Below are positions 651-24,549 of a stretch of 24,549 bases of DNA, piece by piece. This DNA comes from a virus. Its lineage: Duplodnaviria > Caudoviricetes. Every line of letters starts with the position of its first letter. Position 1 is the first letter of the stretch. The notes under the pieces were generated by a model, which did no database searches, was not told the DNA's origin, and worked only from the letters and a program-made list of their open reading frames with translations. Both the position numbers and the translations under genes were made by a program. Location of the stretch: IMG/VR virus record IMGVR_UViG_3300047272_000342, positions 1-24,549 of that record; one strand, written 5' to 3'.

Positions 651-1346
651 ATGAAGCAAAACACAACCGAACCCAACAGTGGAAAGAAAAGACCAAACGT
701 TTTTATCCACTATGCACTAGGAATCATGCTAGTGATGACTGCATCGGCTCCACAGCCAGTTGCAGCCGCCGCTGTATCTCCTATCACTGCACCATCATCG
801 GCAATACTAAAAGAGGATGTAAAAGATCCAGTATCAGCATTATTGCCATCCCCTGCGTTTACTCTGCAAGAGTATGCGCTGACATTACAGCTAGATCAGC
901 TGGAGCAGCAGCTCGAAGAAGCGGAAGAAAAGGTAGACGCAAAAATTGCATCTATCGACGCTGAGTTCGAGAAGTATGCGACTGTAGACGCCCTTATTGA
1001 GAAGCTCTACAGTTACGTAGGAAAATCTGCCTACGTATTTTCAGGAATAGGCCCGTCGGGCTGGGACTGCTCAGGCTTAACCGCCTGGTTCTACAAGCAG
1101 TACAAAGGTGAATATCTAGAGCACCGTGCTTCAGCGCAAGTTGAGAACGGTACTCAGACTGATAGCCCAGTTCCTGGAGACGTAGTTGCGTTTACCTACA
1201 AGGGATCTAAGTCCGCATACCACGTAGCTATCTACGTCGGTGGCGGTATGATGATCCACGCAAAGAACTCACGGGAGGGCACAGTCCTCGAATCCGTGAA
1301 GGGTTTTGCAAAGAAGAATAGCAAGGTTGCATATATTCGCTATTAG
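651..1346 (+). CDS. Secreted NlpC/P60 family peptidoglycan endopeptidase
   Basis: N-terminal basic plus hydrophobic signal-like segment, a coiled-coil (LQLDQLEQQLEEAEEK), and a C-terminal domain with GWDCSG (catalytic Cys), PGDVV, YHVAIYVGGG (His) and MIHA. Confidence 0.9.
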   Translation: MKQNTTEPNSGKKRPNVFIHYALGIMLVMTASAPQPVAAAAVSPITAPSSAILKEDVKDPVSALLPSPAFTLQEYALTLQLDQLEQQLEEAEEKVDAKIASIDAEFEKYATVDALIEKLYSYVGKSAYVFSGIGPSGWDCSGLTAWFYKQYKGEYLEHRASAQVENGTQTDSPVPGDVVAFTYKGSKSAYHVAIYVGGGMMIHAKNSREGTVLESVKGFAKKNSKVAYIRY

Positions 1347-2802: not shown

Positions 2803-3054
2803 ATGCGCGATTTAATTGATCAGTACAACATAGATATGCAGCAGGAGAATTTCGCAATGCTAGTTGCAGCGCGAGTTAACGACATTCTGGCTGGTACAGC
2901 TGTCACGCTTCACTACGAGCTAGTTGGCGGGATGATGTACACCAGAGAGCAGGAGACTCTACTGTTTGCAGATCTAATTGCCCGCGCAGTATGCGCAAAC
3001 TTAAACCGAGATGATCTAGAGACCCTAGAGACACTAGAAACCGCAGGAGAGTAA
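2803..3054 (+). CDS. Hypothetical protein
   Basis: 83-aa ORF with an upstream GGAGAGGA RBS. Its stop overlaps the katG start (TAATG). Confidence 0.65.
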   Translation: MRDLIDQYNIDMQQENFAMLVAARVNDILAGTAVTLHYELVGGMMYTREQETLLFADLIARAVCANLNRDDLETLETLETAGE

Positions 3055-5246: not shown

Positions 5247-5257
5247 TACATTGAACA

Positions 5258-5289
5258 CAGAGGCCCCTCGCGAAAGCGGGGGGTTTCTG
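5258..5289 (+). terminator. GC-rich stem-loop after katG (probable intrinsic terminator)
   Basis: CAGAGGCCCCTCGC-GAAA-GCGGGGGGTTTCTG forms 14 bp including 3 G-U pairs with a GNRA loop, 12 nt after the katG stop. The U-tract is short. Confidence 0.75.
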
Positions 5290-5296
5290 CTATGAT
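5288..5296 (+). promoter_or_regulatory. Extended -10 promoter for the heme oxygenase gene
   Basis: TGCTATGAT (TGn + TATGAT). RBS AAGGAG at 5320-5325. Confidence 0.55.
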
Positions 5297-5330
5297 AGAA
5301 TCGTAAACCCACAAAAAACAAGGAGAAATT

Positions 5331-5936
5331 ATGCTCTCTCAAGCCGTACGCGAAGCATCAAAAACTGCGCACGTTGCAGCCGAGCGTAGCCCTTTCATGA
5401 CTGCATTGATGAAGGGTGATGTTGGCTCTGACGCCTACCGTGACTACCTAACTCAGCTTGCTCCAATTTATGAAGCCCTTGAAGCATGGGACGACAAGCG
5501 TAACCCTTGGCCGCTATTTGACCGTCGTCTTGATCGATTTGAGCGCATCATCTGCGACATCGAATCTCTTGGTGGTTCCGCTCTCGTTTGCGATGCAACT
5601 CTGGAGTACGCCGATCACATTAAGTCCCTGGTTGCATCTAACGACTGGGTGCGGCTTCTCGCTCACCACTACACCCGCTACCTCGGTGACCTATCGGGCG
5701 GGCAGGCAATTGCTTCCTTAGTTACTCGTAACCTCATGATTCCGCCGAACTTCCTATCTTTCTATGAGTTCGACTGTATCGATGACAAGGTTCGCTATAA
5801 AGAGACTTACCGTGAGAATCTAGATACCCTGGTTCCAGTAGAAGACTACCAATTGTTCATCGATGAAGTAGTAGCCGCGTTTGGCTACAACCAGAGAATT
5901 TTCGATGCTCTTGCTAAGCGCTGGTTGACAATCTAA
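5331..5936 (+). CDS. hmuO: Heme oxygenase (biliverdin-producing, HmuO/HO-1 family)
   Basis: Proximal His in SKTAHVAAERSPF, the IYEALE helix, the signature HHYTRYLGDLSGGQ, FYEF, and FIDEVVAAFGYN. Confidence 0.93.
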   Translation: MLSQAVREASKTAHVAAERSPFMTALMKGDVGSDAYRDYLTQLAPIYEALEAWDDKRNPWPLFDRRLDRFERIICDIESLGGSALVCDATLEYADHIKSLVASNDWVRLLAHHYTRYLGDLSGGQAIASLVTRNLMIPPNFLSFYEFDCIDDKVRYKETYRENLDTLVPVEDYQLFIDEVVAAFGYNQRIFDALAKRWLTI

Positions 5937-8580: not shown

Positions 8581-10317
8581 TTGGGTATTTTCAAAAAGGA
8601 CAGCGGAAAGGCTAGAGAGTCTAGACCGAATCTACGCGCCTCTGCCCCAAAGAATGCAACGCGTGTTGCACCAGGAGTCTCTATAGACTCTTTCGGTATT
8701 GTTTACGCCGAGCCTCAGTCTTTCAACTCACCTCGTCCTATGACAGCTGCTGCTGCTCAAGTAAATCTTCAAGACAAGGGTGAAGCAGAACGCTTCAAGT
8801 CTCGTCGCCAGTCTGCTGACACCGCTTGGCAGTCAGAGGCCTGGGAATACTACGACGCAATCGGTGAAGTCAAGTACGCCTTTAATCTAGTTGCGTCTGT
8901 TGTGTCTCGTATTCGTCTTTATGCAGCTGCTATTGCAAACCCAAGCGAAGCACCTGCACCGATTGACTCTGTAGATAAGGTTGATTCTCGACTAGCTGCT
9001 GCCGCAGAGCGTGCTCTAACAAGACTAGACTCTGCTTTTGGTGGACAGGCTGGCCTTCTTAAGGATGCAGCGCTGAACTTGCAGGTGACTGGCGAGTGCT
9101 ATCTGGTTCAGGTTCCAGAGCGTCTTGGTTCTGGCTTACCAGAGTCATGGGACATCCGCTCTGTTGACGAACTCCAGGTCGACTCTAAGGGCAATTACGT
9201 CATCAACTCACGTCGTGACGTAAGCGGAAGCTCTTCTATGTTGTCGCAGGGTAACAAAGATGCACTTAAGCTACCTCAGAGTGCATTTGTTGGTCGCATC
9301 TGGCGTGCACACCCTCGCTACACTCAGGAGTCCGACTCTTCACTACGCGGTCTACTAGACCTCTGCGCCGAGCTTCTACTTCTAAACCGTACCTTCCGTG
9401 CAACTGCACGTTCACGCCTCAACGCTGGTGCTCTTTACTTACCAGATGGTCTATCAGTAGCTGCGTCTCCAGATCCAGACTACCCATACGACGAAGATGG
9501 CAACTACAACGAAGGCTTTACCGCCGAAGAAGCTGCCGATGACTTCGAAGACCAGCTCATCGATGCGATGACCACTCCGATTAAGGACGAGGACTCTGCT
9601 TCTGCTGTTGTTCCGCTAATCATTCGTGGTCCAGCAGAGCTTGGCGACAAGATCAAGCAGTTCAAGTTCGAGCGTTCATTCGACCCAGCCCTAGCTCAGC
9701 GTGCTGACCGAGTGCTAGAGCGCATCATGCAGGGTCTAGACGTCCCTAAAGACATCGTGACGGGTCTAGCGAACGTTAAATACTCTAACGCTCTTCAGAT
9801 CGATGAAAGCCTCTACAAGGCACACATCGAGCCTCTGATGCTGTTGATCGTTGACGCACTAACTGTTATGTACCTGCGTCCATACCTTATTGCAAATGGA
9901 TACACTCCAGACGAAGTAAAGAACGTTTGTATCTGGTACGACCCATCTCTAGTTGCTACCCGCAATGACCGTGCAGCCGATGCTGACATGGGCTTCGACA
10001 AGATGGCTGTGTCGTATGACGCATGGCGTCGCGCTCACGGATTCTCTGAAGCTGATGCTCCAGATGCCAAGGAGTACGCGCTACGTCTAATCGCAGCTAA
10101 GGGTATGGTTACTCCAGAAACTACAGAGGCTGTTCTTGCTGCAATTGCTCCAGACATTATGAATAGTGCTAGAGCGGCTTCGCAAGCTGCATCTCCTGCC
10201 CCTATTCCACCAGCAGTGGATGAGATTTTGCAGGAAGCAACTGGCGTACCAGCGCCTGGCGGTCAAACTGAAGAAACTACTCCCCCACCAGCACTAGCTG
10301 AGCCAGAGGAAGCGTAA
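8581..10317 (+). CDS. Portal protein
   Basis: 578 aa, two genes downstream of terL. Motifs WQSEAWEYYDAIGEV, GECYLV, RIWRAHP, RSRLNAG and SAVVPLIIRGP match actinophage cluster-B-like portals as I recall them. Pro/Glu-rich tail. Confidence 0.85.
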   Translation: MGIFKKDSGKARESRPNLRASAPKNATRVAPGVSIDSFGIVYAEPQSFNSPRPMTAAAAQVNLQDKGEAERFKSRRQSADTAWQSEAWEYYDAIGEVKYAFNLVASVVSRIRLYAAAIANPSEAPAPIDSVDKVDSRLAAAAERALTRLDSAFGGQAGLLKDAALNLQVTGECYLVQVPERLGSGLPESWDIRSVDELQVDSKGNYVINSRRDVSGSSSMLSQGNKDALKLPQSAFVGRIWRAHPRYTQESDSSLRGLLDLCAELLLLNRTFRATARSRLNAGALYLPDGLSVAASPDPDYPYDEDGNYNEGFTAEEAADDFEDQLIDAMTTPIKDEDSASAVVPLIIRGPAELGDKIKQFKFERSFDPALAQRADRVLERIMQGLDVPKDIVTGLANVKYSNALQIDESLYKAHIEPLMLLIVDALTVMYLRPYLIANGYTPDEVKNVCIWYDPSLVATRNDRAADADMGFDKMAVSYDAWRRAHGFSEADAPDAKEYALRLIAAKGMVTPETTEAVLAAIAPDIMNSARAASQAASPAPIPPAVDEILQEATGVPAPGGQTEETTPPPALAEPEEA

Positions 10318-10778
10318 TGGAACAGAACCTAACTAACGCCGATGTTGCGCAGAAGCTAGCCGTACTACTCTCGGATGTAGTTGTTGCTAAATTCATCATG
10401 CACGGATATCACTGGAATGTTTTAGGACCAGATTTTGGCGAGTACCACGAGTTCTTCGCAACTATCTACGAGGACTATGACGATTCAATTGATTTGATTG
10501 CAGAGAACATTCTCAAAGTTGGCTATGCTGCACCGTACTTACTCACAGACTTCCTAGAGATGTCATGCATCAAAGAGGAACGTCTAGGGGATGTCTCCTC
10601 TAGGGAGCTACTAGAGTCGGCACTTAGAGTTAATGCCCACCTGACCGAATGCCACTACTCAGCTTTTGCTGTAGCCAACGACGCCAACAAGCAGGGTTTA
10701 GCTGACTTTCTTGCTGGCAGAATTGACACTCTAGAAAAATGGAACTGGCAAATCAAGGCCTTCTTAGGAGTTCGCTAA
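10317..10778 (+). CDS. dps: Dps family mini-ferritin (DNA starvation/stationary phase protection protein)
   Basis: HGYHWNVLGPDFGEYHEFF...DLIAENI carries the ferroxidase-centre His/His/Asp/Glu. C-terminal LEKWNWQIKA. TAATG overlap with the portal stop. Confidence 0.92.
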   Translation: MEQNLTNADVAQKLAVLLSDVVVAKFIMHGYHWNVLGPDFGEYHEFFATIYEDYDDSIDLIAENILKVGYAAPYLLTDFLEMSCIKEERLGDVSSRELLESALRVNAHLTECHYSAFAVANDANKQGLADFLAGRIDTLEKWNWQIKAFLGVR

Positions 10779-12089: not shown

Positions 12090-14840
12090 ATGCTTGAAAC
12101 TTTTTCACTAACCGCTGACGGTAACTCAGCCGCCGCCCGTAGAGCCCGCGTAGCACTTCAGCCTCGTGACAAGTACGGACGTTGGGTTCCGACTGGTGCT
12201 AGCTTGTTTGCTGGCCTAAGCGCTCTTGGCTCTGTTGTTAACGTCCGAGGAAAAGCTATCGGTGGAACTAACAAAAAGGGCCAGATCAGAATGTTGGTCG
12301 GCAGCGGATACGAGAAGTACGGCATCAAGCCGAATACAGTTCTGACCGTTGACTCTAAGAACGGTGAGCTTTTCTCTGGTGCAGTTCTAGACAAGAACTT
12401 CCTGAAGAAGAAGGGAATTAACCCTGACCTTCGACACAGTCTTCCAAAGAATCTGGTAGACCAGCCTCAGACTCTTGACAAGATGGACCCTCAGCCAGCT
12501 GACGAGTTAGACATTGATCTAGCTACAAATGGTCTTAGCGATGACGAAGACAAAGATCTAAAGGCTGAACGCGACAAGGAGCCTCTAGCAACTCTTCCGC
12601 CAGCGATGGAAGTTGCAGAAGGCGAAGAAGTTGCAGACATCGTTGAGGCAGCTGAGCAGGGCAAGACTAAGCCAGCGTCTATTGGCGACCAGGATGCTGC
12701 CGACATTGCTGCATCTGATGCACTTGGAGAAATCTTCTATGGTGGAGATGCTCCTTCTGTAGAAGACCTAATCGACAAAGCTGCTACCCCTACACCTGCT
12801 GCTCAATCAGACGACACAGGTATTGCTGACTTAAAGCCAGGCGACATGGTGCTTCTACAGGGCCGTCCAATGAAGGTTGAGTCTGTGAAGCAGCGCGCGC
12901 TCTCTGGCGGCTGGGACCTAATGGTAGATGACGGCACTGGTCGAGGACCAGTAAACGTTGCAGACCCTAAGAGATTCCCTAATGGCATCCCAGCCAATGC
13001 AACTCTAAAGAAACTTAAGACAGGTGCTGCCCCTGCAGCTACAACTAAGCCTGCAGCTGTCAAAAAAGCTGACGATGCAGCGCCTGCTGCTCCAACCGCG
13101 CCTGCTGCTCCAACAGCACCTAAGCAGGTTACCAAGCCAGCTCCGAAGGCTAAAAAAGTTACCAAGCCAAAAGCAACTCTTCCTACTATCCCTAAGGGTA
13201 GAGAAGATGATGGCAAGGATGTTCCTCGCAATTTGAACTCTCAGGAGCAAATGCGTCAGACGCCTATTGCTCAGATGTTTGACGACAATGGTAACCCACT
13301 ATTTAAGCGCGATAACAAGGGCAAGCGAGTAGCTGCTCAAGATTCTAACGCTATCTACAATGCTCTCTTAGAGCAGAACCCTCAGGCTAAGGTAGACAAG
13401 TCGGGGCACATCATCCTAGAGCGTGGCACATTTACCGACAAGGATGGTAAGAAATATAAGTACGAAGTAGCGGTAGCTAAAACCCACGGCAACCAGTACA
13501 TGGAACGCTACACTTTCACCGATGAGGCGACTGGCGAAAAACAGTCCTTTTACCACTATGACTACAAGGACTCATTCGCAGCTATCTACGGCGAGGACAA
13601 TGGTGTAAACGTATTCCGCGACATCATCCTTGGCGAGCGTATGCCAGGCAAGCCAGGCTCTAAGATGACTCGAGAGAAAGAGTTCTATTTTGGAGACAAG
13701 TCCACTCTAGCTAAGCGATTGATGTTCTTCCGAGGTAAGAAGTCTACTGGCACAGAGATTACTGATGACATGCTTGATGATTCAAACTTCAAGCTGCTCA
13801 CCCCAGAAGAGGTCGTGCGTAAGTACCTCAATGGACGCGGTGAGAAACTTAACATGGCTGAAGGAAAAGCCAAGGGAACTAAGCTTCAAAGCTTTGTTGG
13901 CAGCGCATGGGAAGCTATCGAAGCCGATGACATGGAAGTATTCCAGCAGCGTATGGTCCAGCTACTTGGCCGCCTACCTGACAACGAGGAATCAAGATCT
14001 CTACTTGTCAACACTCTTAGGGACCAAATCAAGAGTAAGTTCAATGGAACACCTCAGGGGCGAAAGCTAGCACCTCTTGCTAATAACATTGAAAAAGCCA
14101 TCATGTCTGATGGTCTAGATCTGCGCGACATTCAGCGACGCCCCTGGGCCTCAAAGGATGGCAAAACAATTCTTAAGGTTGGCGACAAGGTTCGCTACTG
14201 GAACAACGTTGGTGAGTGGTCTATCGGTGAGGTAGTCAGACTTCGCGAACCTCGTAAGGGTTACGACGACATTGTTGCTGTTAAATTTGCTAACGGGACT
14301 CAGAACGTTCTACGCGCTAAGTACATGGATGTTCTAGGAGACGACCTAGACACCGAACTAAACTTGCACGACAAGGATAGCGATTCCACTGACTACATAG
14401 CATCTCTAAAGAATGATGCGCTCCGCGAAGCACGCGGTATCTTCCTAGACTTCGGCGACGCTCTGAAGCAAGAAGACGACAGTCAAAACGCACCTGCTGG
14501 CGCTCCAGTAAACACCACTAACCCTAACGCTGGGCAGCCTTACTTAGGTTCAGATGGTGTAGATGCAGATGCCCCTGCAGCCGATGTTGCAGATCAAGCA
14601 GATGCAGAGGAGCCTGCAACCGAGGCCGAACCAGAAGCACCAGCAGAAAGTAATATCTCTGACTTGGCGGCTGGAGATGCTTGGTATAGCGATGAAGGTG
14701 ACTACTTAGGAACTTTCGTTGAGGCGCAGGTTGTCGAGGCGGATGACGGCACACAAGCATGGGCTGTTATCTACCTGGATGAAGATGGTGATGAGCAGCT
14801 CGAGATCGTTAATCTCGAGGAGTCACGCCTCCCAAAATAG
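12090..14840 (+). CDS. Large head-associated multidomain protein (0-frame product; N-terminal part of a frameshift fusion)
   Basis: About 916 aa; ATG 12090 is better spaced from AAGGA than ATG 12084. Contains N-terminal QPRDKYGRW, three KOW/SH3-like barrels (DLKPGDMV, LKVGDKVRY, DLAAGDAW), and Ala/Pro/Lys and acidic linkers. Ends CTC CCA AAA TAG. Confidence 0.8.
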   Translation: MLETFSLTADGNSAAARRARVALQPRDKYGRWVPTGASLFAGLSALGSVVNVRGKAIGGTNKKGQIRMLVGSGYEKYGIKPNTVLTVDSKNGELFSGAVLDKNFLKKKGINPDLRHSLPKNLVDQPQTLDKMDPQPADELDIDLATNGLSDDEDKDLKAERDKEPLATLPPAMEVAEGEEVADIVEAAEQGKTKPASIGDQDAADIAASDALGEIFYGGDAPSVEDLIDKAATPTPAAQSDDTGIADLKPGDMVLLQGRPMKVESVKQRALSGGWDLMVDDGTGRGPVNVADPKRFPNGIPANATLKKLKTGAAPAATTKPAAVKKADDAAPAAPTAPAAPTAPKQVTKPAPKAKKVTKPKATLPTIPKGREDDGKDVPRNLNSQEQMRQTPIAQMFDDNGNPLFKRDNKGKRVAAQDSNAIYNALLEQNPQAKVDKSGHIILERGTFTDKDGKKYKYEVAVAKTHGNQYMERYTFTDEATGEKQSFYHYDYKDSFAAIYGEDNGVNVFRDIILGERMPGKPGSKMTREKEFYFGDKSTLAKRLMFFRGKKSTGTEITDDMLDDSNFKLLTPEEVVRKYLNGRGEKLNMAEGKAKGTKLQSFVGSAWEAIEADDMEVFQQRMVQLLGRLPDNEESRSLLVNTLRDQIKSKFNGTPQGRKLAPLANNIEKAIMSDGLDLRDIQRRPWASKDGKTILKVGDKVRYWNNVGEWSIGEVVRLREPRKGYDDIVAVKFANGTQNVLRAKYMDVLGDDLDTELNLHDKDSDSTDYIASLKNDALREARGIFLDFGDALKQEDDSQNAPAGAPVNTTNPNAGQPYLGSDGVDADAPAADVADQADAEEPATEAEPEAPAESNISDLAAGDAWYSDEGDYLGTFVEAQVVEADDGTQAWAVIYLDEDGDEQLEIVNLEESRLPK
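13080..13114 (+). repeat. 18-nt-period tandem repeat in a linker (APAAPT x2)
   Basis: GCGCCTGCTGCTCCAAC at 13080-13096 and 13098-13114. Confidence 0.8.
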
Positions 14841-14885
14841 ATAGGGCTGCAGTTGGCCCACAAGATGGGACACCAGCTACAGCCC
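14817..14885 (+). promoter_or_regulatory. Programmed -1 ribosomal frameshift signal 1 (SD-like, slippery heptamer, stem-loop)
   Basis: GAGGAG 14817-14822, in-phase C CCA AAA 14831-14837, a 6-nt spacer, then the stem GGGCTG-C-AGTTGG-CCCA / CAAGA / TGGG-ACA-CCAGCT-A-CAGCCC at 14844-14885. Confidence 0.85.
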
Positions 14886-16978
14886 CTGCTCCGAAAGTAG
14901 CTCCAAATCTAGCTAGTAAGAAATTCGACCTAGCTGGAATTAGAGATCTCAAGAAAAAGGGACCAGGTAGACCTAGGACTACCCCTATTGACCCTAGCTG
15001 GCACGACCTTCGCGCAATCGAGTCTTATATTTATGACAGCATCCCTGCTGGCCACGATTTCGACAAACTAGAGGAGCTTATTTCGGATGTTCGGGCTGCC
15101 CGCACTGACGGAGATACAGATGCGTACGCTACCGCACTTCGCGACCTTCTCAAGTTTCACTATGACAGCTTTGATGCAGCTAACGCATATAAGTCGCCGC
15201 TTGACTTAGTTAAAGCCGACAGATTCATGTCACCTCGTGAAGTTGCTAAAGTAGCTGGATTCCTTCACAATAAAGACCGATCTGGAACTAGCCCTAAAAC
15301 TTACGATGAAGTTAAGTCGGAGTTGGCTAACGAGCTTCGTACAAAAATCCCTCGTATCTCTAGCATCCTAGCCGCACTCGGCGGAGACTGGAAAGCAGAA
15401 GGTGCACTAGAGCTAATTGACCGCTACGAGTCAGAGTTCGAGCAAGCCTATAAGGATGCTGGACTATCTGGATCAGAGGCTAAGTTCCGCGCTCAGGCAA
15501 AGGCTGCAGCTAAGGTGCGCAAGATGATGGACTCTCCATCTACCGCGCACATAAAGCTCTCTTCGGCTTCTGACAATGCTGACATTTTTGTGTACATGGA
15601 CACTGGCCTACCAGCTGGGTCACCATATGCTCCAATTATTGATGACACAGAGGCTTCTGCGATTCTCGGCGGTATCCGAAAAGCTAGAGCTAACAGATTC
15701 AACAAGGATAGGGTAGTTATCCACGCTTTGGCTGGCGGTACGGACCTACCTAAGGCAGTAGCATCACAGATAGGCGAGGGCGATGCTGCATTCACCTTCC
15801 ACCCTGGTGGTAACGGTGGAGTATTTATCTACCCTAAGAAGATAACTGCCATTGGCAAAGATTTGTCGTTCAACCCTAAGTGGTACTCTACTGATGTTTC
15901 GTCTGTAGAGGCTGCCTATCAGCACATCATTGTTCACGAAACTGGCCACTTAATGATGTACAAACACTGGGGTTCAGACAAGGATAATGGTAGAGCGTCC
16001 CTAGTTGCTGACATCAAGAAATTTAAGGTGGCTGGCGGAGCAAGCGAGTATGGTGACCAGAGCCCATCGGAGAACTTTGCAGAGCAATACGCTAAGTACC
16101 TGCTGACTGGTGACGCAACTCCAGAATTCTTAGCCTTGCTAGAGTCTAAGGGTCTAACTAAGGCTCAGATAAACAAGAAGTGGAGAGACGCTTACAAGAC
16201 AGAGTCTCACTCTAAGTTCTTCGACTTCCTAGACAAGATCTGGGAAGATGATAAAGCTCAGTTCATTCCAGAGTTCAACGGGCCAGAAGCATCCGAATAC
16301 TCTAAGTATAAGAAGTTTGGAGCTGGTAGAGTCCACAAGTTAGCTAGACTACTCGGGTTCACAAATAAGAAGCCTCAGCTAATAGACTCCGTTCCTGACG
16401 ACAAGTACAAAATTTGGCGAGCAGTAGATAATATTGACCGTGATGGAGTTAATGTCCCAGCAGAGCAGCTGCACGATGAGTATCTGACTCTAGATAAGCC
16501 TTGGTTCGGATATGGAATCTACGGAGATGGCCAGTATTTTGCAGCTCACGAAGGTGACACTTACAGCTTCGGTCAGTATGCTATGGCTTTTTCTCTAGAC
16601 CCTAACGCTAAGGTGTACGTTTACGGCAGACGTTACGGCTCGGGCGGAATCTATAGCCCTGTAAACAATGGCAACTACGATGTAGAGAAATTCAGCTCTG
16701 AATTGCAGAGTAGCTTGCTCAGGGAGGTAGTTCTGAACGAGATAGCTCCTGATGCTACTGAAGCAGAGATTCGAGTAGAGATACAGCTTCTCAAGAGTAA
16801 ACTCGGACTTACTGGTGATTCTCAGCACGATGCATCTATTTTGGCTGGAATGTTTGGATTCCAGGGCATAGAAGTTGTTGGAGGCGGTACTTCTAGCTAC
16901 ATTGTTGCACTTGATAGAAGCATGATAAGGATGCCTAAGCCTAGAAAAGACCTACTTAGAACAAGTAGATCTAGATAA
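14837..16978 (+). CDS. -1 frame extension (713 aa): HEXXH metallopeptidase plus ADP-ribosyltransferase-like domain
   Basis: Frame is open from 14813 to 16978 with no ATG/GTG/TTG before 15227. Peptidase motifs: HETGH 15935-15949 and SEY...SENFAE 16043-16084. ART-like motifs: IWRAV, GYGIYGDGQYF, GFQGI and YIVALDR at 16412-16918. Confidence 0.75.
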   Translation: MDRAAVGPQDGTPATAPAPKVAPNLASKKFDLAGIRDLKKKGPGRPRTTPIDPSWHDLRAIESYIYDSIPAGHDFDKLEELISDVRAARTDGDTDAYATALRDLLKFHYDSFDAANAYKSPLDLVKADRFMSPREVAKVAGFLHNKDRSGTSPKTYDEVKSELANELRTKIPRISSILAALGGDWKAEGALELIDRYESEFEQAYKDAGLSGSEAKFRAQAKAAAKVRKMMDSPSTAHIKLSSASDNADIFVYMDTGLPAGSPYAPIIDDTEASAILGGIRKARANRFNKDRVVIHALAGGTDLPKAVASQIGEGDAAFTFHPGGNGGVFIYPKKITAIGKDLSFNPKWYSTDVSSVEAAYQHIIVHETGHLMMYKHWGSDKDNGRASLVADIKKFKVAGGASEYGDQSPSENFAEQYAKYLLTGDATPEFLALLESKGLTKAQINKKWRDAYKTESHSKFFDFLDKIWEDDKAQFIPEFNGPEASEYSKYKKFGAGRVHKLARLLGFTNKKPQLIDSVPDDKYKIWRAVDNIDRDGVNVPAEQLHDEYLTLDKPWFGYGIYGDGQYFAAHEGDTYSFGQYAMAFSLDPNAKVYVYGRRYGSGGIYSPVNNGNYDVEKFSSELQSSLLREVVLNEIAPDATEAEIRVEIQLLKSKLGLTGDSQHDASILAGMFGFQGIEVVGGGTSSYIVALDRSMIRMPKPRKDLLRTSRSR

Positions 16979-16983
16979 AGAAT

Positions 16984-16994
16984 TGGTATAGGAT
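16984..16994 (+). promoter_or_regulatory. -10 element for a leaderless transcript
   Basis: TAGGAT (16989-16994), 6 nt before ATG 17001. Confidence 0.5.
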
Positions 16995-17000
16995 TATCTT

Positions 17001-17285
17001 ATGGTCGATTATAAGAAACTTAGCGCAGAGTATTCACAGAGGTTTGGCTATGCAATATCTGCAGCAACGCACTCTGACTACTTCAGTGTTGATGGTAAAA
17101 CTTGGGACCTAACCGCTGACTGGACTAAAGATGCCAATCACGTATTCGCGGCGGAAGATTTTCAGGCCTATATTTTCAATCAAATAAAGATTATAACTGC
17201 TCCCTCAAACAAGAAGCCACCTACAATGGAGCAGCTTCCAGAAGAGCTTAGGGCTTGGCTATTGAGAGTAGAGGCTAGAGGCTAA
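17001..17285 (+). CDS. Hypothetical protein (candidate immunity/antidote protein)
   Basis: 94-aa ORF directly after the effector-like domains. Function is inferred from position only. Confidence 0.55.
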   Translation: MVDYKKLSAEYSQRFGYAISAATHSDYFSVDGKTWDLTADWTKDANHVFAAEDFQAYIFNQIKIITAPSNKKPPTMEQLPEELRAWLLRVEARG

Positions 17286-17467
17286 TGGCTGAAAGAAAGC
17301 ACAAAACTGTATTTACTTTCGTGGCAGACAACGTCACGGGCGAGCTTGGGGATAAAGAAGTCACCATAGACTTGTCTAAAATCTCAGATGATGAGCTAGA
17401 TCAACTAATCTTTAAGATCCCAGAGGCAACCTCCGAGATCGTTTACCGCGAAATATACGGTCAATAG
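17285..17467 (+). CDS. Hypothetical protein
   Basis: 60 aa, TAATG-coupled to the upstream gene. Confidence 0.6.
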   Translation: MAERKHKTVFTFVADNVTGELGDKEVTIDLSKISDDELDQLIFKIPEATSEIVYREIYGQ

Positions 17468-17488
17468 AATAACACTACTGGGAAACAG

Positions 17489-17497
17489 TGCTAAAAT
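17489..17497 (+). promoter_or_regulatory. Extended -10 promoter candidate
   Basis: TGCTAAAAT in an intergenic gap, overlapped by the inverted repeat GCTAAA-N6-TTTAGC (17490-17507). Confidence 0.55.
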
Positions 17498-17546
17498 TGA
17501 ATTTAGCCATCAGACTGGTCATTTCCCGCGATTAGAGAGATAGAAC

Positions 17547-17912
17547 ATGGCAAAAAACAGCATTGTAGACGTATGGTTCTACGTAAATCCTGAAACTCAG
17601 GTGGTTGATGCTGCCATCTGCTACTTTCCGCTGGGTGTGTCCAAGCGTGTTGACTCCGACTGGGAGTTCACCAACAAAGAAGAAGCTGGCCTATACGGCG
17701 AGCTAGCTGCCCACGACGTGTATCAGTTGAACTGGGAAACTGATCCTAAAACTATTGACGACTCTTTCGACTTCGACAACTATGACGATGCGAATCACGA
17801 AGCAATTAAGCTGTTTGACAAGGGAGAACTTACATTAGAGTCTCTAAAAGAGTACTCGGAGTTCCTATACAGTGGTTCCGAATTAGGATCGGCTGAAGAC
17901 GGCGAGGAGTAG
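17547..17912 (+). CDS. Hypothetical acidic protein
   Basis: 121-aa ORF whose 3' end supplies the GAGGAG RBS for the next gene. Confidence 0.7.
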   Translation: MAKNSIVDVWFYVNPETQVVDAAICYFPLGVSKRVDSDWEFTNKEEAGLYGELAAHDVYQLNWETDPKTIDDSFDFDNYDDANHEAIKLFDKGELTLESLKEYSEFLYSGSELGSAEDGEE

Positions 17913-17913
17913 C

Positions 17914-20900
17914 GTGTTCAAATTCCTAGGGTTAACTGAGAATCTAGCGGTTTTCAGTGGCGATAAAGTTTATGCTGTTGTAGATACAGCTAAGAACCTG
18001 GTTCAAGACATGAGCCAGGTTGAAATTCAGGCGCTCATTGCATCTGCGTCTCTTGCAACTAACAATGTTGTAGTTTCTGATTCGGTCGTAGAGCTAGCTA
18101 AGGCTGCTTTAGTAGTGCCAGAGTCCACAATCACAGCATCTGGTGATCGTATGTACACGATTCCAGCTGGAGTTCAAGACGAGGCTGTTAGAGGTCTCGA
18201 ATGGCGCAAAGAAGAGAAGCGCGGCGGCACCCCTGTCGGTCTCAACACAGCTAGAACTCTAGCCGATGGTGGGCAAATAGGTATCAAAAAGATCCGCCAC
18301 ATCGCTAAGTACTTCCCTCGTCACGAAGTTGACAAAAAGGGCAAGGGCTGGGCACCTGGTGAAGACAACTTCCCGTCTAACGGCCGTATCGCTTGGGCTC
18401 TTTGGGGTGGTGACGCCGCTTGGCGTTGGGCTCGTGCAATCGTAGAGCGTGAGAACAAAAAAGCGCTCACATCTACTGGCTATGCTTTGCCAGGTTACGA
18501 AGATGATATCGAGACTTACGGGTATGGTACTGGCTACGATGCTGACCTAAACCCATTTAAAATTGCACATGAGCTTGACTTAAACGTTGGGCCAGAGTTT
18601 ATGGCGCGCGTGCGTTTAGATGGCTCTGGTATTGACCGTCTATACAAGATCGAGATCGATGGTCGCGTATATATCTGGGACGACTGCGGCTGGGATGACC
18701 TTGGCCACGTAGATGGTGACGTCTACACATACGACAAGGCTTTAGATGACCCGTATGATTTGACAGAGACAGATCACGTAATCATTGACCCTTCTGCTGC
18801 TGTAATTATTTCTGCCTTCTTCCAGGAGAGACCTAACCAGCCAGTACTTCTGATCGAAATTGATCCAGAAGAAACTATGCTTATGTCTGATGGCCTATAC
18901 GAAGAAGACTTCGACATGGTCGATAGAGTTATGACCGCTGCAGGCGAGCCAGTAACTAACCAAGACGGCAACTACACCCCTGACGAGCGCTCTGATAAAG
19001 CTGCTAAGCAGGTTAGAGATGCTTCTGGTAAGTTCGCTAAGGCTGGCTCCCGTGTAGTTGTCGCTGGCGACGAAAACCGTGGCTCTGGAGTGATTGAAAG
19101 CGTTGACAGTAGCACTGGCTTAGTCTCAGTTAAATTGGACAGCGGTAGCACTATCGAGGTAGATGCTAAATACACTCGTGCTGAAGAAGCTCCTACTACT
19201 GGACCTAGACGAGTTCCTACTATTCAGGCACCTCTAGACATGTCTGGTGTTCTTGGCGTACCTAGGACTTCAGGTACATCTAAGAAGGCGCAGCTTCCTG
19301 GCACTCTCCCAGTCATGACAAATGCAGACATCGCTCTGATGATCAGCGACTGGCCAGCGTACGTCGCAAAGCAGCGTGCTGCTTACAAGCTTCACAGTGA
19401 CACTGACCCTGGCATCAAAACCGTAACCAAGGGAAAACAGTCTACGGCTCCTGGTCTATCAGAGTACGACAAAAAGTACATGAAGAAGAACTACGACCTA
19501 GATATGTCGGCTGAGGGTATTACTGCTTCTGCAGAAGAGTCTGATGAAATCAACTCTCCTAAGGAGTCTGATGTACCAGCTAAGTACCTAGCTTTAGTGT
19601 CACCTGATGACAGCACTGCTGTTATGGACCTTGTTGCTATCGTTCCAGAGACAAAAACCACTACAGCTCCTGCTCTATATAGACGAGAAGCTGGTAAGTG
19701 GATTAAAGATGACCAGATCCTTATGGACCTCAAGTCAGCTACTCCTCCAGACGTAGTTGAGCTAGATGATCAGGCTATTCTAAATGATGTTCTCGTTCAG
19801 ACTGATTCTGCAATACAGGCGTCTGGCTACCTAGACTTTTCTATCTTCTGGGAGACTACCGTTGAGCCGATCTTGGCGGCTGGTGGACTAGACCGCAACC
19901 GCGAAAACGCTGAGGAGCTTCGTAAATACTGGACCCGCGGCAAGGGTGCACTAAAGATTCGTTGGGGAACCCCTGGCGACTGGACTCGTTGCGTTCGCAA
20001 TCTTTCAAAGTACATGGGCGCTCGCGCTAAGGGGTATTGCCAGCTTCGTCACAAGGAAGCAACTGGTGTCTACACTGGAAGTAAGCTAAACCCTGGGAAA
20101 AAGAGCCAGAGCTTCAGCACACTATTCCAGACTGAAGCAGACTTCGATAAAGTAATTACTCAGCGCGCAGTTCTAGCTGCTAGAGCAGCAGACGCACGTG
20201 AAAAGGTTGGACTAGTGGCAGGAGCCGTTAAGCCTACAGAGGGCGCTAAATTCCACATCCCTATGATCGTTCCAGAAGAGATGGAATCGGGAGATGGTCG
20301 TAAGTTCTCAAAGGATGCCATCACAACTAGAGAGCTACCACTGCCTCTTCTATGGCAGATTAAGACTGGTGCTGGGCACGACGGGTCTGTTGTAGTTGGT
20401 CGCATCGACTACATCGAAAGAATTGAAGGCGGAATGGGTAATGCCTATGGTGTTTTTGATACTGGACCTTATGGCCGTGAAGCTGAACGACTAGTTAAGC
20501 ACGGGTTCCTTCGTGGAGTTTCAGTAGACCTTGACCAGTTCGAGGCTAAAGAAGACAAGAGACCGACTGACGAAGCATCAGAAGACGATGGTCACATCGG
20601 TAAGGACAAACTTACTATCAATAAGGCTCGCATAATGGCTGCTACAATTGTAGCAAAGCCTGCATTCCAGGAATGCTCTATTTATCTCCAAAATTCAGGG
20701 GACCAGGAGGAAGAAATGACCCCAGAGGATGGCGTGTACGAGGAGTCTCTAGAAGACTTCAGCGACGTCGAACCTATCACAGCTTCTGGCTACCTTGCGT
20801 CAGAGATTCCAGTTGCTCCACCAGCTGAATGGTTCGAAAATCCAGGCCTAACTAAGGCCACACCACTTACCGTTGACAAAGATGGCCGTGTCTATGGACA

Positions 20901-22008
20901 CATTGCTGCTTGGCACGTAAGCCACATTGGACTTCCACGTTCAACCAAGCCACCACGTTCGCGCAGCAAGTACGCCTACTTCCACACTGGCGTGATCCAC
21001 ACTGCAGTTGGCACCGATGTTCCTGTTGGTCAGCTAACTCTAGCTGGAGGCCACGCTCCTCTAAATGCTGACGCTGCTTCTGCTGCAAAGCACTACGATG
21101 ACACTGCTTCCGCTGTAGCTGACGTCCACATGGGTGAAGACGAGTACGGCATTTGGTGTGCTGGCTCACTACGCCCAGGCGTAGATGAGTACCAGGTTCG
21201 CGCACTACGCGCTTCTGCTCCTTCAGGAGACTGGCGTCCAATCAATGGCTCACTTGAGCTAGTTGCAGTTTGCCAGGTTAACGTTCCAGGATTCCCTGTT
21301 GCTCGTGCGATGATCGCGTCTGGCAAGGTACTAGCACTAGTAGCCGCTGGTGCTAACTACATGGCAATGATGAAGAGTAACGTTGTTAGCTCTCTAGTTG
21401 CTAAGGCAGATCTTCTAGGTCAACTATCATCTAGCGCTCCTGACCTAAAGTCTCGCGTTAAGACTGCTGAACGCAAACTGCGTGAGGCAAACATAGAGGC
21501 ACTAACAGCTAGTGCTGCGGAGATGCGCGAGAAGGCTTTAACTGCTGCTGCTATTGCAGAGTTGGCAAAAATCTCTGAAGAAGAGCGTATGGATCTAGCT
21601 AAAGATGGCAAAGCAATGCCTGATGGTGCTTACCCTATCCGTGACACCGAAGACTTGAAGAATGCGATTCAGGCATACGGACGAGCAAAAGCATCTGAGC
21701 GTGCAGCAGTGCGTAAGCACATCATAAAGCAGGCTCGTAAGCTAAAGCAGTCTAGCCTCATCCCACAGCACTGGGTTAACGCAGACTCCATGGAAGCCGC
21801 ACAGCGTGTAGCTAGTATGCGAGCAGCAATTACAGCCGCTGCCGTTCGAGGCGAGAACCCTTGCTGGGACGGTTATGAAATGATTGGAATGAAAGAGCAG
21901 GACGGCAAGTCAGTTCCTAACTGCGTTCCTATCGATGCAGCATCTGCATCCGAGGAGGTGGTGGTTTCAGCCGCCCCAAAAGTGAGGAGATCTCCGACTC
22001 AGAGCTAA
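17914..22008 (+). CDS. Multidomain capsid maturation (prohead) protease polyprotein (0-frame product)
   Basis: 1364 aa upstream of the capsid gene. HK97-like protease domain at about 20245-20680 (ESGDGR, LPLLWQ, GHDG His 20377, GVSVD Ser 20521, VAKPAF). A second conserved domain has VYGHIAAW...HYDDT...SGDWR...VNVPGFP. Several small accessory modules. Confidence 0.85.
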   Translation: MFKFLGLTENLAVFSGDKVYAVVDTAKNLVQDMSQVEIQALIASASLATNNVVVSDSVVELAKAALVVPESTITASGDRMYTIPAGVQDEAVRGLEWRKEEKRGGTPVGLNTARTLADGGQIGIKKIRHIAKYFPRHEVDKKGKGWAPGEDNFPSNGRIAWALWGGDAAWRWARAIVERENKKALTSTGYALPGYEDDIETYGYGTGYDADLNPFKIAHELDLNVGPEFMARVRLDGSGIDRLYKIEIDGRVYIWDDCGWDDLGHVDGDVYTYDKALDDPYDLTETDHVIIDPSAAVIISAFFQERPNQPVLLIEIDPEETMLMSDGLYEEDFDMVDRVMTAAGEPVTNQDGNYTPDERSDKAAKQVRDASGKFAKAGSRVVVAGDENRGSGVIESVDSSTGLVSVKLDSGSTIEVDAKYTRAEEAPTTGPRRVPTIQAPLDMSGVLGVPRTSGTSKKAQLPGTLPVMTNADIALMISDWPAYVAKQRAAYKLHSDTDPGIKTVTKGKQSTAPGLSEYDKKYMKKNYDLDMSAEGITASAEESDEINSPKESDVPAKYLALVSPDDSTAVMDLVAIVPETKTTTAPALYRREAGKWIKDDQILMDLKSATPPDVVELDDQAILNDVLVQTDSAIQASGYLDFSIFWETTVEPILAAGGLDRNRENAEELRKYWTRGKGALKIRWGTPGDWTRCVRNLSKYMGARAKGYCQLRHKEATGVYTGSKLNPGKKSQSFSTLFQTEADFDKVITQRAVLAARAADAREKVGLVAGAVKPTEGAKFHIPMIVPEEMESGDGRKFSKDAITTRELPLPLLWQIKTGAGHDGSVVVGRIDYIERIEGGMGNAYGVFDTGPYGREAERLVKHGFLRGVSVDLDQFEAKEDKRPTDEASEDDGHIGKDKLTINKARIMAATIVAKPAFQECSIYLQNSGDQEEEMTPEDGVYEESLEDFSDVEPITASGYLASEIPVAPPAEWFENPGLTKATPLTVDKDGRVYGHIAAWHVSHIGLPRSTKPPRSRSKYAYFHTGVIHTAVGTDVPVGQLTLAGGHAPLNADAASAAKHYDDTASAVADVHMGEDEYGIWCAGSLRPGVDEYQVRALRASAPSGDWRPINGSLELVAVCQVNVPGFPVARAMIASGKVLALVAAGANYMAMMKSNVVSSLVAKADLLGQLSSSAPDLKSRVKTAERKLREANIEALTASAAEMREKALTAAAIAELAKISEEERMDLAKDGKAMPDGAYPIRDTEDLKNAIQAYGRAKASERAAVRKHIIKQARKLKQSSLIPQHWVNADSMEAAQRVASMRAAITAAAVRGENPCWDGYEMIGMKEQDGKSVPNCVPIDAASASEEVVVSAAPKVRRSPTQS
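21952..21981 (+). promoter_or_regulatory. Programmed -1 ribosomal frameshift signal 2
   Basis: GAGGAGGTG 21952-21960, 14 nt, then in-phase C CCA AAA 21975-21981. The 0-frame stop comes after 8 more codons. Confidence 0.8.
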
Positions 22009-22643
22009 AGAAGCTACGTCAGGCTAAAGAAGAGGCTGACAAGCAGACTGAAGAAGAGATCAAAGCCGCCGAAGAAGTAAAAGCTAACAAGGGCAAAACT
22101 GCTCCAGACGAGTATGACGAAGAGGGTCGCCAGAAGTATGTTTCTGGCATCAACCAGCCTCGTGATGCTAAGGGTAAGTACCGCAAGGTTCTTGCTCGTC
22201 TAAAGCAGGACCTTGGTGTAGCTGGACTAGCCAAAGCACTTAACAAAGCTGAAGACGCTGAAAACTTGGACTTTGCTGGAGACTACGAGGCATCAGCCGC
22301 GGCCAGCTCTAAGTTGCTGAAGATGATCGACAGGATCGACACCAAGGCTCTAAATCCAGAGGCTTTAGAGAATGTTAGACTTACTGCAGCTGAACTCGGA
22401 AAGACAATAGCTAACTTGCCATTGCCTTTCGGAGAGGACGCTCAGAAACTAAAATTTAGCGATCTTCCATCTGGACTGAAGGACCTCATCGAAACGATGA
22501 TTACTAAAGTCGAGCAGAAGATCGGTAAAAAGGATGCTGACATTGCTACGCAAAGTCTAAAATCCTACATGTCAGGTGCAGACCTGTATTCTCAGGGAGA
22601 AGTTCAATCTGAGATGAGTAAGCTGCTCCGACTCCTTACCTAA
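21981..22643 (+). CDS. -1 frame extension (220 aa) of the protease polyprotein
   Basis: Frame is open from 21921 to 22643. It reads SEEISDSELKKLRQAKEEADKQ...KYVSGINQPRDAKGKYRKVLARLKQDLG... and continues into the 22266 ORF. No start codon or RBS before TTG 22266. Confidence 0.8.
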   Translation, partial: SEEISDSELKKLRQAKEEADKQTEEEIKAAEEVKANKGKTAPDEYDEEGRQKYVSGINQPRDAKGKYRKVLARLKQDLGVAGLAKALNKAEDAENLDFAGDYEASAAASSKLLKMIDRIDTKALNPEALENVRLTAAELGKTIANLPLPFGEDAQKLKFSDLPSGLKDLIETMITKVEQKIGKKDADIATQSLKSYMSGADLYSQGEVQSEMSKLLRLLT

Positions 22644-22760: not shown

Positions 22761-24549
22761 GTGTACGACCAAATTAAAACTCAGCTAGATACTCTAGCCG
22801 AGCTAGGTGACGAACAAGTCGCCGAGCTTCAGGCAGAGATTATCTCGCAGTTTGAAATGGTTGAGGGTGAAGACCCGACTCCTGAGACAGTTGATGCTAT
22901 GACATTGTTAGCTGATTCTCTTGACATGGTTCGCGGCGAGCTTTCTCGCCGTGAGACAGCAGCCGCTGAACTTGCAGCGAAGGCTGCAGAAGCTGTTGCT
23001 CGTGTAAAGGGTGACGCTGACAGTGAGGGAGAAGAAATGGCTATTACTGAAGACGAGCCTGTAGTAGAGGAAACTCTAACAGAGGAAGCTCCAGCAGAAG
23101 ACGTAGTTCCAGCCGAAGAGGAAGCCCCAGCTGCGGAAGAAATTCCAGCAGAAGAGGAGACCACTGAGGAAGAGGCTACAGAAACCGAAGAAGAGGAAGA
23201 CAAAAAGGAGGAAGAAATGTCTACCGATGAAACAATTCAGGCATCTGCTTCTGACGAGTCAACCGCTGAGGTTGCTGCTGTCGCAGAAACTGTAGAAGAG
23301 ACCGCTGCTCCAGAGGCAGAGCTTTCAGCAACCGATGAGGTTGCAGAAGCTCCAGTCGAAGAAGCTGTCGTAGAAGCGCCAGTCGAGGCTGAAGCTGCAG
23401 TTGAAGAAACTGTAGTCGAAGCAGCCGAGGCTAGCGAAGCATCAACCGCTCAGGAAGACGGTTCTGAACTATCAACCACCACAGAGGAAGCCACTGAGCT
23501 TTCAACTGAAGTTACTGCAGAGGCAGTTGCTGAAGTTGAGACCGCTGCAGAGCTATCATCTGACGAAACTATTGAAACACCAACCGCTCTTTCGGAAGAA
23601 GAGCAGAATCAGGAGCAGGCAGTGACCGCTGCAGCAGAACAGCCTTTCGAGGCACCAGCTGACCGTCAGCCTGTAGTTCAGGAAATCGCTAACCCAGTGG
23701 CAATCACCGCTGGTGCAGACATCCCTGGTTACAGCGCGGGAAGCACCGTAAATGACCTAAACGAAGTTGCATCTCTTATGGAGAAGCGCCTTCACTCACT
23801 ACGCCGTGTTAACGGTGGCGACGGAGAGCAGCACATTGTTGCATCGTTCTCTACCTCATACTCTGAGGACCGCTTCCTAGGCACCGACGCTGAGGCTAAC
23901 ACCGCTAAGATCAACGCGAGCACCGCTCTTGTTGCATCTGGTGGCCACGCTGCTCCAGCTGAGGTTAAGTACGATATCTTCGGTATCGGCTCAACCACCA
24001 ACCGTCCAGTTCGTGACGCACTTCCTAAGTTCCAGGCAGACCGTGGCGGTATCCGCTTCGTAACCGCTCCTTCATTCGCAGCTGACACTTATGCTGACGC
24101 TGTTGGTGTATGGACCGCTGCAAACGACTCAGCTGAGACTCCTAGCCCATCGGCTAAGACCTCTCTAACTGTTTCTGCTGCTCAGGAGAACGTTGCTGTT
24201 ACTGACGCTGTAACCCTACAGCTACAGTTCGGTAACTTGATGACCCGTGCGTACCCAGAGCTAATCGCTCGCCACAACGAACTTGCTCTTGTACAGCACG
24301 CTCGTGAGGCAGAAGTTAACCTTCTATCGAAGATTAGCGCAGCTTCAACTGCAGTTACTTCTGGAACCCTAATCGGTTTTGGTCGCGACTTCTTGGTATC
24401 TGTACGCAAGGCAGCTGTTGCTTACCGTTCACGTCACCGCATTGCTCCAACTACCAAGTTGACTGCAATCGTTCCTGACTGGATCTTCGATGCAATGGCT
24501 TCTGACCTAGCAATCGCGATGCCTGGCGACAACACCATTGGTGTTAGCA
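22761..24549 (+). CDS. Major capsid protein with a long acidic N-terminal scaffold-like region (partial, runs off the window)
   Basis: GTG 22761 after AGGAGGT, with 596 stop-free codons to the window end. MYDQIKTQLDTLAEL..., an E/A/T-rich tract, ITAGADIPG, then ALVASGGHAAPAEVKYDIFG...RPVRDALPKFQADRGGIRF...FGNLMTRAYPE. This resembles cluster-B-type actinophage capsid proteins. Confidence 0.88.
   Translation, partial: MYDQIKTQLDTLAELGDEQVAELQAEIISQFEMVEGEDPTPETVDAMTLLADSLDMVRGELSRRETAAAELAAKAAEAVARVKGDADSEGEEMAITEDEPVVEETLTEEAPAEDVVPAEEEAPAAEEIPAEEETTEEEATETEEEEDKKEEEMSTDETIQASASDESTAEVAAVAETVEETAAPEAELSATDEVAEAPVEEAVVEAPVEAEAAVEETVVEAAEASEASTAQEDGSELSTTTEEATELSTEVTAEAVAEVETAAELSSDETIETPTALSEEEQNQEQAVTAAAEQPFEAPADRQPVVQEIANPVAITAGADIPGYSAGSTVNDLNEVASLMEKRLHSLRRVNGGDGEQHIVASFSTSYSEDRFLGTDAEANTAKINASTALVASGGHAAPAEVKYDIFGIGSTTNRPVRDALPKFQADRGGIRFVTAPSFAADTYADAVGVWTAANDSAETPSPSAKTSLTVSAAQENVAVTDAVTLQLQFGNLMTRAYPELIARHNELALVQHAREAEVNLLSKISAASTAVTSGTLIGFGRDFLVSVRKAAVAYRSRHRIAPTTKLTAIVPDWIFDAMASDLAIAMPGDNTIGVS

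What the first reader, a model, noticed from the sequence alone, without database searches (positions are those of the whole stretch)
12090..22643. Candidate new system: frameshift-dosed, capsid-loaded, protease-processed effector delivery in the head module
Seen together: (i) two giant head-module ORFs each with in-phase C CCA AAA at the 3' end and a start-less -1 continuation; (ii) the first continuation carries peptidase and ART-like enzyme domains; (iii) a Q-x-R-D-x-x-G-[KR]-[WFY] motif in the carrier, the protease and the protease extension; (iv) recurrent [ILVM]-[TVQ]-A-[SAG] sites at domain boundaries; (v) small separately promoted genes after the enzyme domains. Established: phage -1 frameshifts set protein ratios (tail chaperones, T7 gp10, Lactobacillus phage A2 head protein at CCCAAAA), and phage polyvalent/MuF-fused proteins carry metallopeptidase and ART domains. 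Inference: recoding fixes a minority of armed carrier molecules, which are loaded into proheads, trimmed and injected to counter host defence or remodel the host. I do not know of a description of this combination.
Basis: partly seen in the sequence, partly recalled or inferred. Interest (0 to 1): 0.92.

Follow-up and report, generated by a model that had tools for sequence, protein, structure and literature searches.

The report
Two frameshifts dose phage head cargo
In a family of freshwater actinobacterial phages, conserved slippery sites very likely make some ribosomes step back one base, adding a swappable enzyme tail to a predicted head-carried protein and setting how often the head protease keeps its tail domain, which would let the phage ration cargo that is probably packaged and may be delivered to the host.

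Summary
Both C CCA AAA sites are real. Site 1 (14831): 27 phage lineages end the carrier gene on an in-phase slippery heptamer, 25 with a strong hairpin about 6 nt downstream. No other long ORF end among 793 has one. The -1 tail varies: a zincin peptidase in 25 of 26, plus an ART-like domain or ArdC-N. Small downstream genes track each enzyme domain, as immunity genes do.

Site 2 (21975) is no assembly error (three independent runs). Its polarity flips: the window and one other lineage need the shift, while 12 lineages keep the heptamer and a Shine-Dalgarno-like stimulator in frame (predicted truncation, as in dnaX). Five cultured Microbacterium phages carry an in-frame site with a hairpin.

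Not supported: trimming of the cargo (cleavage motif absent from carrier and tail) and separate promoters. Packaging and injection are inferred; no frameshift was measured.

The scan had noted both frameshifts and the cleavage motif on other genomes. Ten literature searches found the parts (A2 head frameshift, MuF toxins, polyvalent proteins) but not this combination. New variant of a known kind.

The parts
8581..10317 (+). portal protein (context)
   Evidence: PHROG 776, E 9e-105
12090..14840 (+). carrier ORF, 916 aa, no known family; N-terminal leader with a relaxed cleavage-like site and the QxRD motif
   Evidence: no Pfam, PHROG or NCBIfam hit; leader compared
12159..12185 (+). QxRDxxG[KR][WFY] motif in the carrier
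14831..14837 (+). site 1 slippery heptamer C CCA AAA, followed directly by the carrier stop TAG (14838-14840)
14844..14885 (+). predicted stimulatory hairpin 6 nt after site 1
   Evidence: z -3.9, 0 of 200 shuffles as stable; basal stem invariant in 10 of 10, two inner pairs with compensatory changes
14837..16978 (+). -1 frame cargo tail, 713 aa: helical region, zincin peptidase, ART-like domain
15542..16168 (+). zincin metallopeptidase domain (HExxH at 15935-15949)
16304..16975 (+). ART-fold domain, activity uncertain
17001..17285 (+). small gene that accompanies the ART-like domain; candidate inhibitor
   Evidence: 9 of 9 ART-bearing tails, 0 of 27 others
17285..17467 (+). small gene that accompanies the lethal-factor-like zincin; candidate inhibitor
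   Evidence: 19 of 26 split lineages; absent with ArdC-type and enzyme-less tails
17547..17912 (+). conserved small acidic gene before the protease, independent of cargo type; extended -10-like site at 17469-17497
17914..22008 (+). multidomain head maturation protease precursor, 1364 aa in frame 0, with 11 cleavage-like motifs; protease core about 20260-20700; QxRD at 19009-19035
   Evidence: PHROG 18402 E 2e-62; Peptidase_S78 E 0.002, below cutoff
21953..21964 (+). Shine-Dalgarno-like element: AGGAGGTG ends 14 nt, and GGTGG 10 nt, before site 2
21975..21981 (+). site 2 slippery heptamer C CCA AAA; frame 0 stops at 22008
21978..22643 (+). -1 frame protease extension, 221 aa, helical, QxRD at 22155-22181; in frame or a separate gene in most relatives
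22761..24549 (+). major capsid protein with acidic N-terminal extension and 5 cleavage-like motifs (cut by window end)
   Evidence: PHROG 777 E 2.5e-51

Best explanation
Two conserved slippery heptamers in this phage head module very likely act as programmed -1 ribosomal frameshift sites: site 1 would add a swappable enzyme tail (zincin peptidase plus an ART-like domain) to a minority of carrier molecules that are probably packaged in the head, and site 2 would set how many protease precursors carry a C-terminal helical domain. Shown by sequence comparison: conservation of both signals, variability of the tail, co-variation of the small genes with it, and reversal of site 2's polarity between lineages. 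Inferred: most ribosomes stop at 14840 and make a 916-aa (about 100 kDa) carrier, while hairpin-stalled ribosomes make a 1629-aa (about 178 kDa) armed form. The shared QxRD motif likely addresses carrier, protease and extension to the prohead. The protease likely cuts itself, the capsid leader and the carrier's short N-terminal leader, but not the cargo. The armed form would enter the next host with the DNA, as MuF toxins and polyvalent proteins are thought to. The two small genes likely inhibit the two enzymes in the producing cell.
For: Site 1: 27 lineages from 48 locus rows, all -1, with C CCA AAA (19) or A AAA AAA (8) 0 or 3 nt before the stop; hairpin in the top 5% of local windows in 25 of 27; all 33 of 793 long ORF ends with such a heptamer are carrier ends. 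First starts in the tail scatter from +27 to +387 nt, and the region before the window's first ATG is conserved and folds. A fused relative (L006) has the same RGPK peptide coded without a slip site. Site 2: gap-free contigs across it in runs X4, X6 and X8 from three studies. GTG GTG and C CCA AAA are invariant in ten lineages whose fourfold sites are only 36-52% identical, with GTG at 8.8% of Val and AAA at 24% of Lys codons; the same cassette appears in 4 further lineages found later. GGTGG ends 10 nt upstream, within the 9-14 nt given for -1 stimulators. Cargo. Of 65 distant homologues of the ART domain scanned, 18 are fused to MuF, portal or minor capsid domains.
Against: No frameshift, virion protein, cleavage or enzyme activity was measured. 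The carrier matches no MuF or other virion family. Site 2 has no significant 3' hairpin in the window (z -0.6 to -1.2), and 54 of 72 fused lineages lack a heptamer at the defined positions. Six lineages start the extension as its own gene. Many relatives have a single-ORF carrier (40 loci, not de-duplicated). The ART match is weak (Z 5.4), and the last-strand Glu seen in 7 of 11 homologues is absent in the window copy. Small-gene co-occurrence could be simple linkage, and 6 of the 9 ART partners were in the profile used; L175 has the zincin-partner gene without a HExxH in its last 800 aa.
Confidence: 0.62

Rival explanations
1. The frameshifts are real, but the tail acts in head assembly or in the producing cell (self-processing zincin, nucleic-acid-binding or inactive ART fold) and is not delivered as an effector.
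For: The zincin is the constant part (25 of 26 tails), and PMC5512222 proposes autoprocessing roles for such peptidases. The ART catalytic acid is uncertain. L122 and L123 have short or missing tails.
Against: Domain swapping (ART, ArdC-N, others) and domain-matched small genes follow the MuF toxin-immunity pattern. The same ART family is fused to head proteins elsewhere.
Confidence: 0.25
2. Site 1 is programmed, but site 2 is only a tolerated one-base deletion: Pro-Lys happened to be slippery and rescues the extension in two lineages, with no shifting selected in the in-frame relatives.
For: No hairpin in this clade; most fused lineages have no heptamer; a nearby -1 stop is expected in any frame.
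Against: Rare codons GTG GTG and AAA stay invariant at saturated synonymous divergence. The base before CCA stays C under Gly, Ala and Ser codons. Five cultured phages carry heptamer plus hairpin near the same boundary.
Confidence: 0.2
3. The downstream frames are separate genes started by reinitiation or non-canonical starts (for example the ATA overlapping the carrier stop), or the breaks are assembly errors.
For: ATA at 14837 overlaps TAG in the window; six distant lineages do start the protease extension separately.
Against: In 15 of 27 lineages another codon sits between heptamer and stop, so the ATA overlap is not conserved. No conserved start exists. Independent contigs carry the site-2 break.
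Confidence: 0.05

Closest known systems
MuF polymorphic toxins with immunity genes (PMC12226406, passages; MuF-VIP2 fusions in Microbacterium phages, PMC7302621, passages)
   Same: Head-module gene with a conserved N-terminal part, a variable enzymatic C-terminus and one or two small downstream genes.
   Different: No MuF domain detected; the tail is attached by a -1 frameshift; the constant enzyme is a zincin.
Phage polyvalent proteins (Iyer et al. 2017, PMC5512222, passages)
   Same: MPTase, ArdC-N and ART domains; relatives hit MPTase-PolyVal and ArdcN above cutoff.
   Different: The word 'frameshift' does not occur in that paper's main text; the window's own tail hits no PolyVal model.
Lactobacillus phage A2 head-protein -1 frameshift, T3/T7 gp10, lambda G/GT (Atkins et al. 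2016, PMC5009743, passages)
   Same: A -1 shift near the end of a structural gene makes a longer minor product; A2 has two such events.
   Different: Those extensions are Ig-like or chaperone domains on major proteins, not swappable enzymes. That A2 uses CCCAAAA is recalled, not seen in the held text.
dnaX tau/gamma frameshift, including reversed forms (PMC5009743, passages)
   Same: SD-stimulated -1 shift; one base change swaps which product needs the shift.
   Different: Here it lies in a phage protease precursor, uses C CCA AAA, and lacks a clear 3' hairpin in the window's clade.

Membership tests
Programmed -1 ribosomal frameshift (site 1) | In-phase X XXY YYZ heptamer with overlapping -1 ORF | tested here: met
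   27 lineages
Programmed -1 ribosomal frameshift (site 1) | 3' stimulatory structure about 5-9 nt downstream, conserved | tested here: met
Programmed -1 ribosomal frameshift (both sites) | Measured transframe product | not testable with these tools
   needs reporter, profiling or mass spectrometry
dnaX-type SD-stimulated -1 frameshift (site 2) | SD-like element 9-14 nt upstream, conserved beyond protein need | tested here: met
   spacing
dnaX-type SD-stimulated -1 frameshift (site 2) | 3' stem-loop | tested here: inconclusive
   z -0.6 in the window, 2 of 14 rows below -2; present in the five cultured phages
MuF polymorphic toxin | N-terminal MuF domain | tested here: not met
   no Pfam, PHROG or NCBIfam hit for the carrier; the carrier was not folded, so a remote fold likeness is open
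MuF polymorphic toxin | Variable C-terminal enzyme with cognate downstream gene | tested here: met
   co-occurrence only
MuF polymorphic toxin | Small gene binds or neutralises the enzyme | not tested
   no complex prediction was obtained
Polyvalent protein | Two or more conflict domains (MPTase, ART, ArdC-N) in one chain | tested here: met
Polyvalent protein (phage type) | Packaged and delivered with the DNA | not testable with these tools
   indirect only
Zincin metallopeptidase | HExxH, downstream Glu and zincin fold | tested here: met
ADP-ribosyltransferase superfamily | ART fold | tested here: inconclusive
   Z 5.4, rmsd 4.2, 112 aligned; consistent family but under the tool's Z 8 caution; Foldseek best E 0.02
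ADP-ribosyltransferase superfamily | Catalytic residues | tested here: inconclusive
   first-strand Arg and Tyr invariant; last-strand Glu in 7 of 11, absent in the window copy
Prohead serine protease (S78/assemblin type) | Profile match to the protease domain | tested here: met
   PHROG E 2e-62; Pfam S78 E 0.002, below cutoff

The most novel reading that the evidence does not exclude
A two-dial recoding system in the head module. One hairpin-driven frameshift rations a polymorphic enzyme cargo, each domain with its own inhibitor gene, onto a non-MuF carrier. A second, SD-driven frameshift of reversible polarity rations a QxRD-bearing loading domain released from the protease. The QxRD motif is a shared prohead-targeting signal, and the armed carrier is injected to counter host defence.
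Probability: 0.35. Interest if true: 0.87.

Novelty: new variant of a known kind. Interest (0 to 1): 0.72.

Why it matters
It would add a class of phage frameshift that gene callers miss: the cargo is annotated as a separate, truncated hypothetical gene. It would link recoding to the copy number of packaged effectors and point to a non-MuF route for loading enzymes into actinophage heads. Site 2 looks like a natural experiment in frameshift polarity reversal, which the review I read describes for dnaX. It can be tested in cultured Microbacterium phages (A3Wally, Cece, Pumpernickel, Big4, Zooman).

Tried and rejected
Assembly error at site 2: my first reading, rejected. Cargo trimming by the motif: 0.7 and 0.6 sites per 1000 aa in carriers and tails of 32 rows, against about 8 in the protease ORF. 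Separate promoters: below chance. Single origin of the two split site-2 lineages: rejected on the protease-core tree (AU p 0.016, 22 rows), though recombination could explain this. No family or look-alike for carrier or extension; no solved-sequence hit for the ART profile; Foldseek gave nothing at E<=0.001. The context block at the end is shifted by one base and was not used (redone); L225, classed as split there, is a fused gene cut by the contig start. Junctions without a slip site were left out of the site-1 count: they are gene pairs upstream of the carrier, or single-ORF carriers followed by a 330-440 aa gene with its own start. In-frame heptamers inside distant single-ORF carriers are suggestive only. 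RNA runs with small shares were not used.
Full report
Setting. The window is a whole 24.5-kb virus record, estimated 15% complete. It holds terminase, portal, head protease and major capsid genes. The nearest annotated relatives are Actinomycetia phage DSL-LC01 and the large Microbacterium phages A3Wally, Cece, Pumpernickel, Big4 and Zooman. The DNA runs holding the stretch are freshwater, aquatic or estuarine, and homologues lie in an Actinomycetota and a Rhodoluna MAG, possibly as binned phage contigs. The host is likely a freshwater actinobacterium.

Site 1. The carrier ends CTC CCA AAA TAG, and the -1 frame runs 713 codons further. Among relatives, 48 locus rows fall into 27 lineages (85% identity over 150 nt, window included). 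Each ends the carrier on C CCA AAA (19) or A AAA AAA (8), 0 nt (12) or 3 nt (15) before the stop, with a long -1 ORF. In 25 of 27 the next 50 nt fold in the top 5% of local windows. Of 793 unique long ORF ends, 33 carry such a heptamer and all are carrier ends. The window's hairpin has z -3.9; in ten relatives its base is invariant and two inner pairs show compensatory change. The first canonical start in the tail varies from +27 to +387 nt, and the region before the window's first ATG is conserved and predicted helical. L006 encodes the same junction peptide in one frame and lacks the slip site. A programmed -1 shift is the best reading; its efficiency is unknown. Many relatives, including the cultured phages, have single-ORF carriers, so the shift is not obligatory.

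Cargo. The window's tail holds a zincin (HExxH, ExFAE; Z 10.7 to lethal factor, 9.3 to PPEP-3) and an ART-like domain. The ART call rests on Z 5.0-5.4 matches to NatT, ParT, MbcT and PARPs and on PARP or ART-PolyVal hints in relatives; the last-strand Glu is missing here. Across 26 split lineages 25 have a HExxH and 9 this ART domain; 6 of the 26 tails scanned carry ArdC-N plus MPTase-PolyVal. A profile search found 1141 homologues of the ART domain. Of 65 that I picked from the 150 listed, 14 carry MuF (two below cutoff), 3 a portal and 1 a minor capsid domain. This supports head loading by analogy only, since the carrier itself matches no family.

Small genes. The 17001 family follows 9 of 9 ART-bearing tails and 0 of 27 others (3 of the 9 were outside the profile). 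The 17285 family follows 19 of 26 split tails and 6 of 10 single-ORF or cut carriers. It is absent after the six ArdC-type tails, which have a different small gene, and after the enzyme-less tail of L122, whose sibling L119 has both. This matches the two immunity genes behind a MuF toxin (PMC12226406, passages). Linkage alone could also produce it, and binding was not tested.

Site 2. Close relatives read GGC CCA AAA GTA GAA in frame where the window has one base fewer. The break is genuine: contigs of runs X4, X6 and X8 cross it without a gap, and L127/L129 share it. Of 80 lineages from 172 loci, 72 are fused, 6 have a separate gene and 2 need the shift. Fourteen fused lineages keep C CCA AAA in frame at the same position, 12 with GTG GTG upstream. 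In ten lineages compared, fourfold sites are 36-52% identical, and elsewhere only 2 of 17 conserved Val and 0 of 23 Pro codons are invariant, yet these codons do not change. The set was chosen for the heptamer, so GTG GTG is the independent evidence. GGTGG ends 10 nt before the heptamer in 11 of 11 rows, even though the window has an extra codon; Atkins et al. give 9-14 nt for -1 stimulators. A shift would truncate in those lineages and extend in the window, the reversal that review describes for dnaX. The two split lineages are not sisters on the protease tree. All five named Microbacterium phages examined carry an in-frame heptamer about 180 codons before the protease stop, followed by a hairpin and a -1 stop within 3-7 codons. 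Against: no strong hairpin in the window's clade, and 54 of 72 fused lineages have no heptamer at these positions.

Motifs. QxRD sits in carrier, protease and extension and recurs in relatives; its role as a targeting signal is inference. The cleavage-like motif is enriched in protease and capsid and falls between PHROG-defined domains. It is at background in carriers and tails. A relaxed version precedes QxRD in most carrier leaders by eye. Site 2 follows a relaxed copy, so the extension is likely released as its own protein, which fits the six lineages where it is a separate gene. T4 internal proteins and their cleaved leader are a recalled analogy.

Literature. I saw passages of PMC5512222, PMC5009743 (first 300,000 of 449,034 characters held), PMC7302621, PMC12226406 and PMC10611076. 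For PMC10885494 I saw passages, section 19 and its one held supplement. That paper notes VIP2 and MuF-like genes among predicted phage frameshifts, the nearest hint in print; its full prediction list was not in the held supplement and may bear on novelty. Ten searches found no description of this combination; subscription journals are largely missing from the library.

Verdict. A real, conserved double-recoding head module with polymorphic cargo. Recoding at site 1 about 0.9, at site 2 about 0.75, packaging about 0.7, delivery as an effector about 0.55. New variant of a known kind; interest 0.72.

Noticed in passing
window 3054-5936 and 10317-10778: Catalase-peroxidase, heme oxygenase and a ferritin/Dps-like gene flank or sit inside the packaging module: an iron and oxidative-stress set of host-like genes.
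   Followed up: partly
L081:10636 (DSL-LC01); also L152, L158, L161, L169: Single-ORF carriers with an in-frame C CCA AAA and a -1 stop within 3-4 codons; DSL-LC01 has a strong hairpin after it. Site 1 may also exist in truncating polarity.
   Followed up: partly
L082-L085, L187: Cultured Microbacterium phages have an in-frame slippery heptamer plus hairpin about 180 codons before the protease stop; the records show it as one CDS.
   Followed up: yes
L122:4878-5723; L123:4994: The frameshift signal is kept although the tail is short, enzyme-less or missing.
   Followed up: partly
L005, L041, L084, L133, L149: Single-ORF carriers hold other cargo: PIF1 or UvrD helicase parts and a PI3/PI4-kinase-like domain; Atuin's is annotated DNA helicase.
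   Followed up: no
window 12047, 16984, 17490, 22650: A GGTA(G/A)AAT-like word recurs upstream of head genes, by eye: a possible late promoter, not tested statistically.
   Followed up: no
window 16304-16975: The cyanophage A4 pre-ejectosome chain 9k3a_B ties for the best structural match of the ART-like domain (Z 5.4, rmsd 6.0).
   Followed up: no
window 651-1346: NlpC/P60 peptidoglycan hydrolase-like gene.
   Followed up: no
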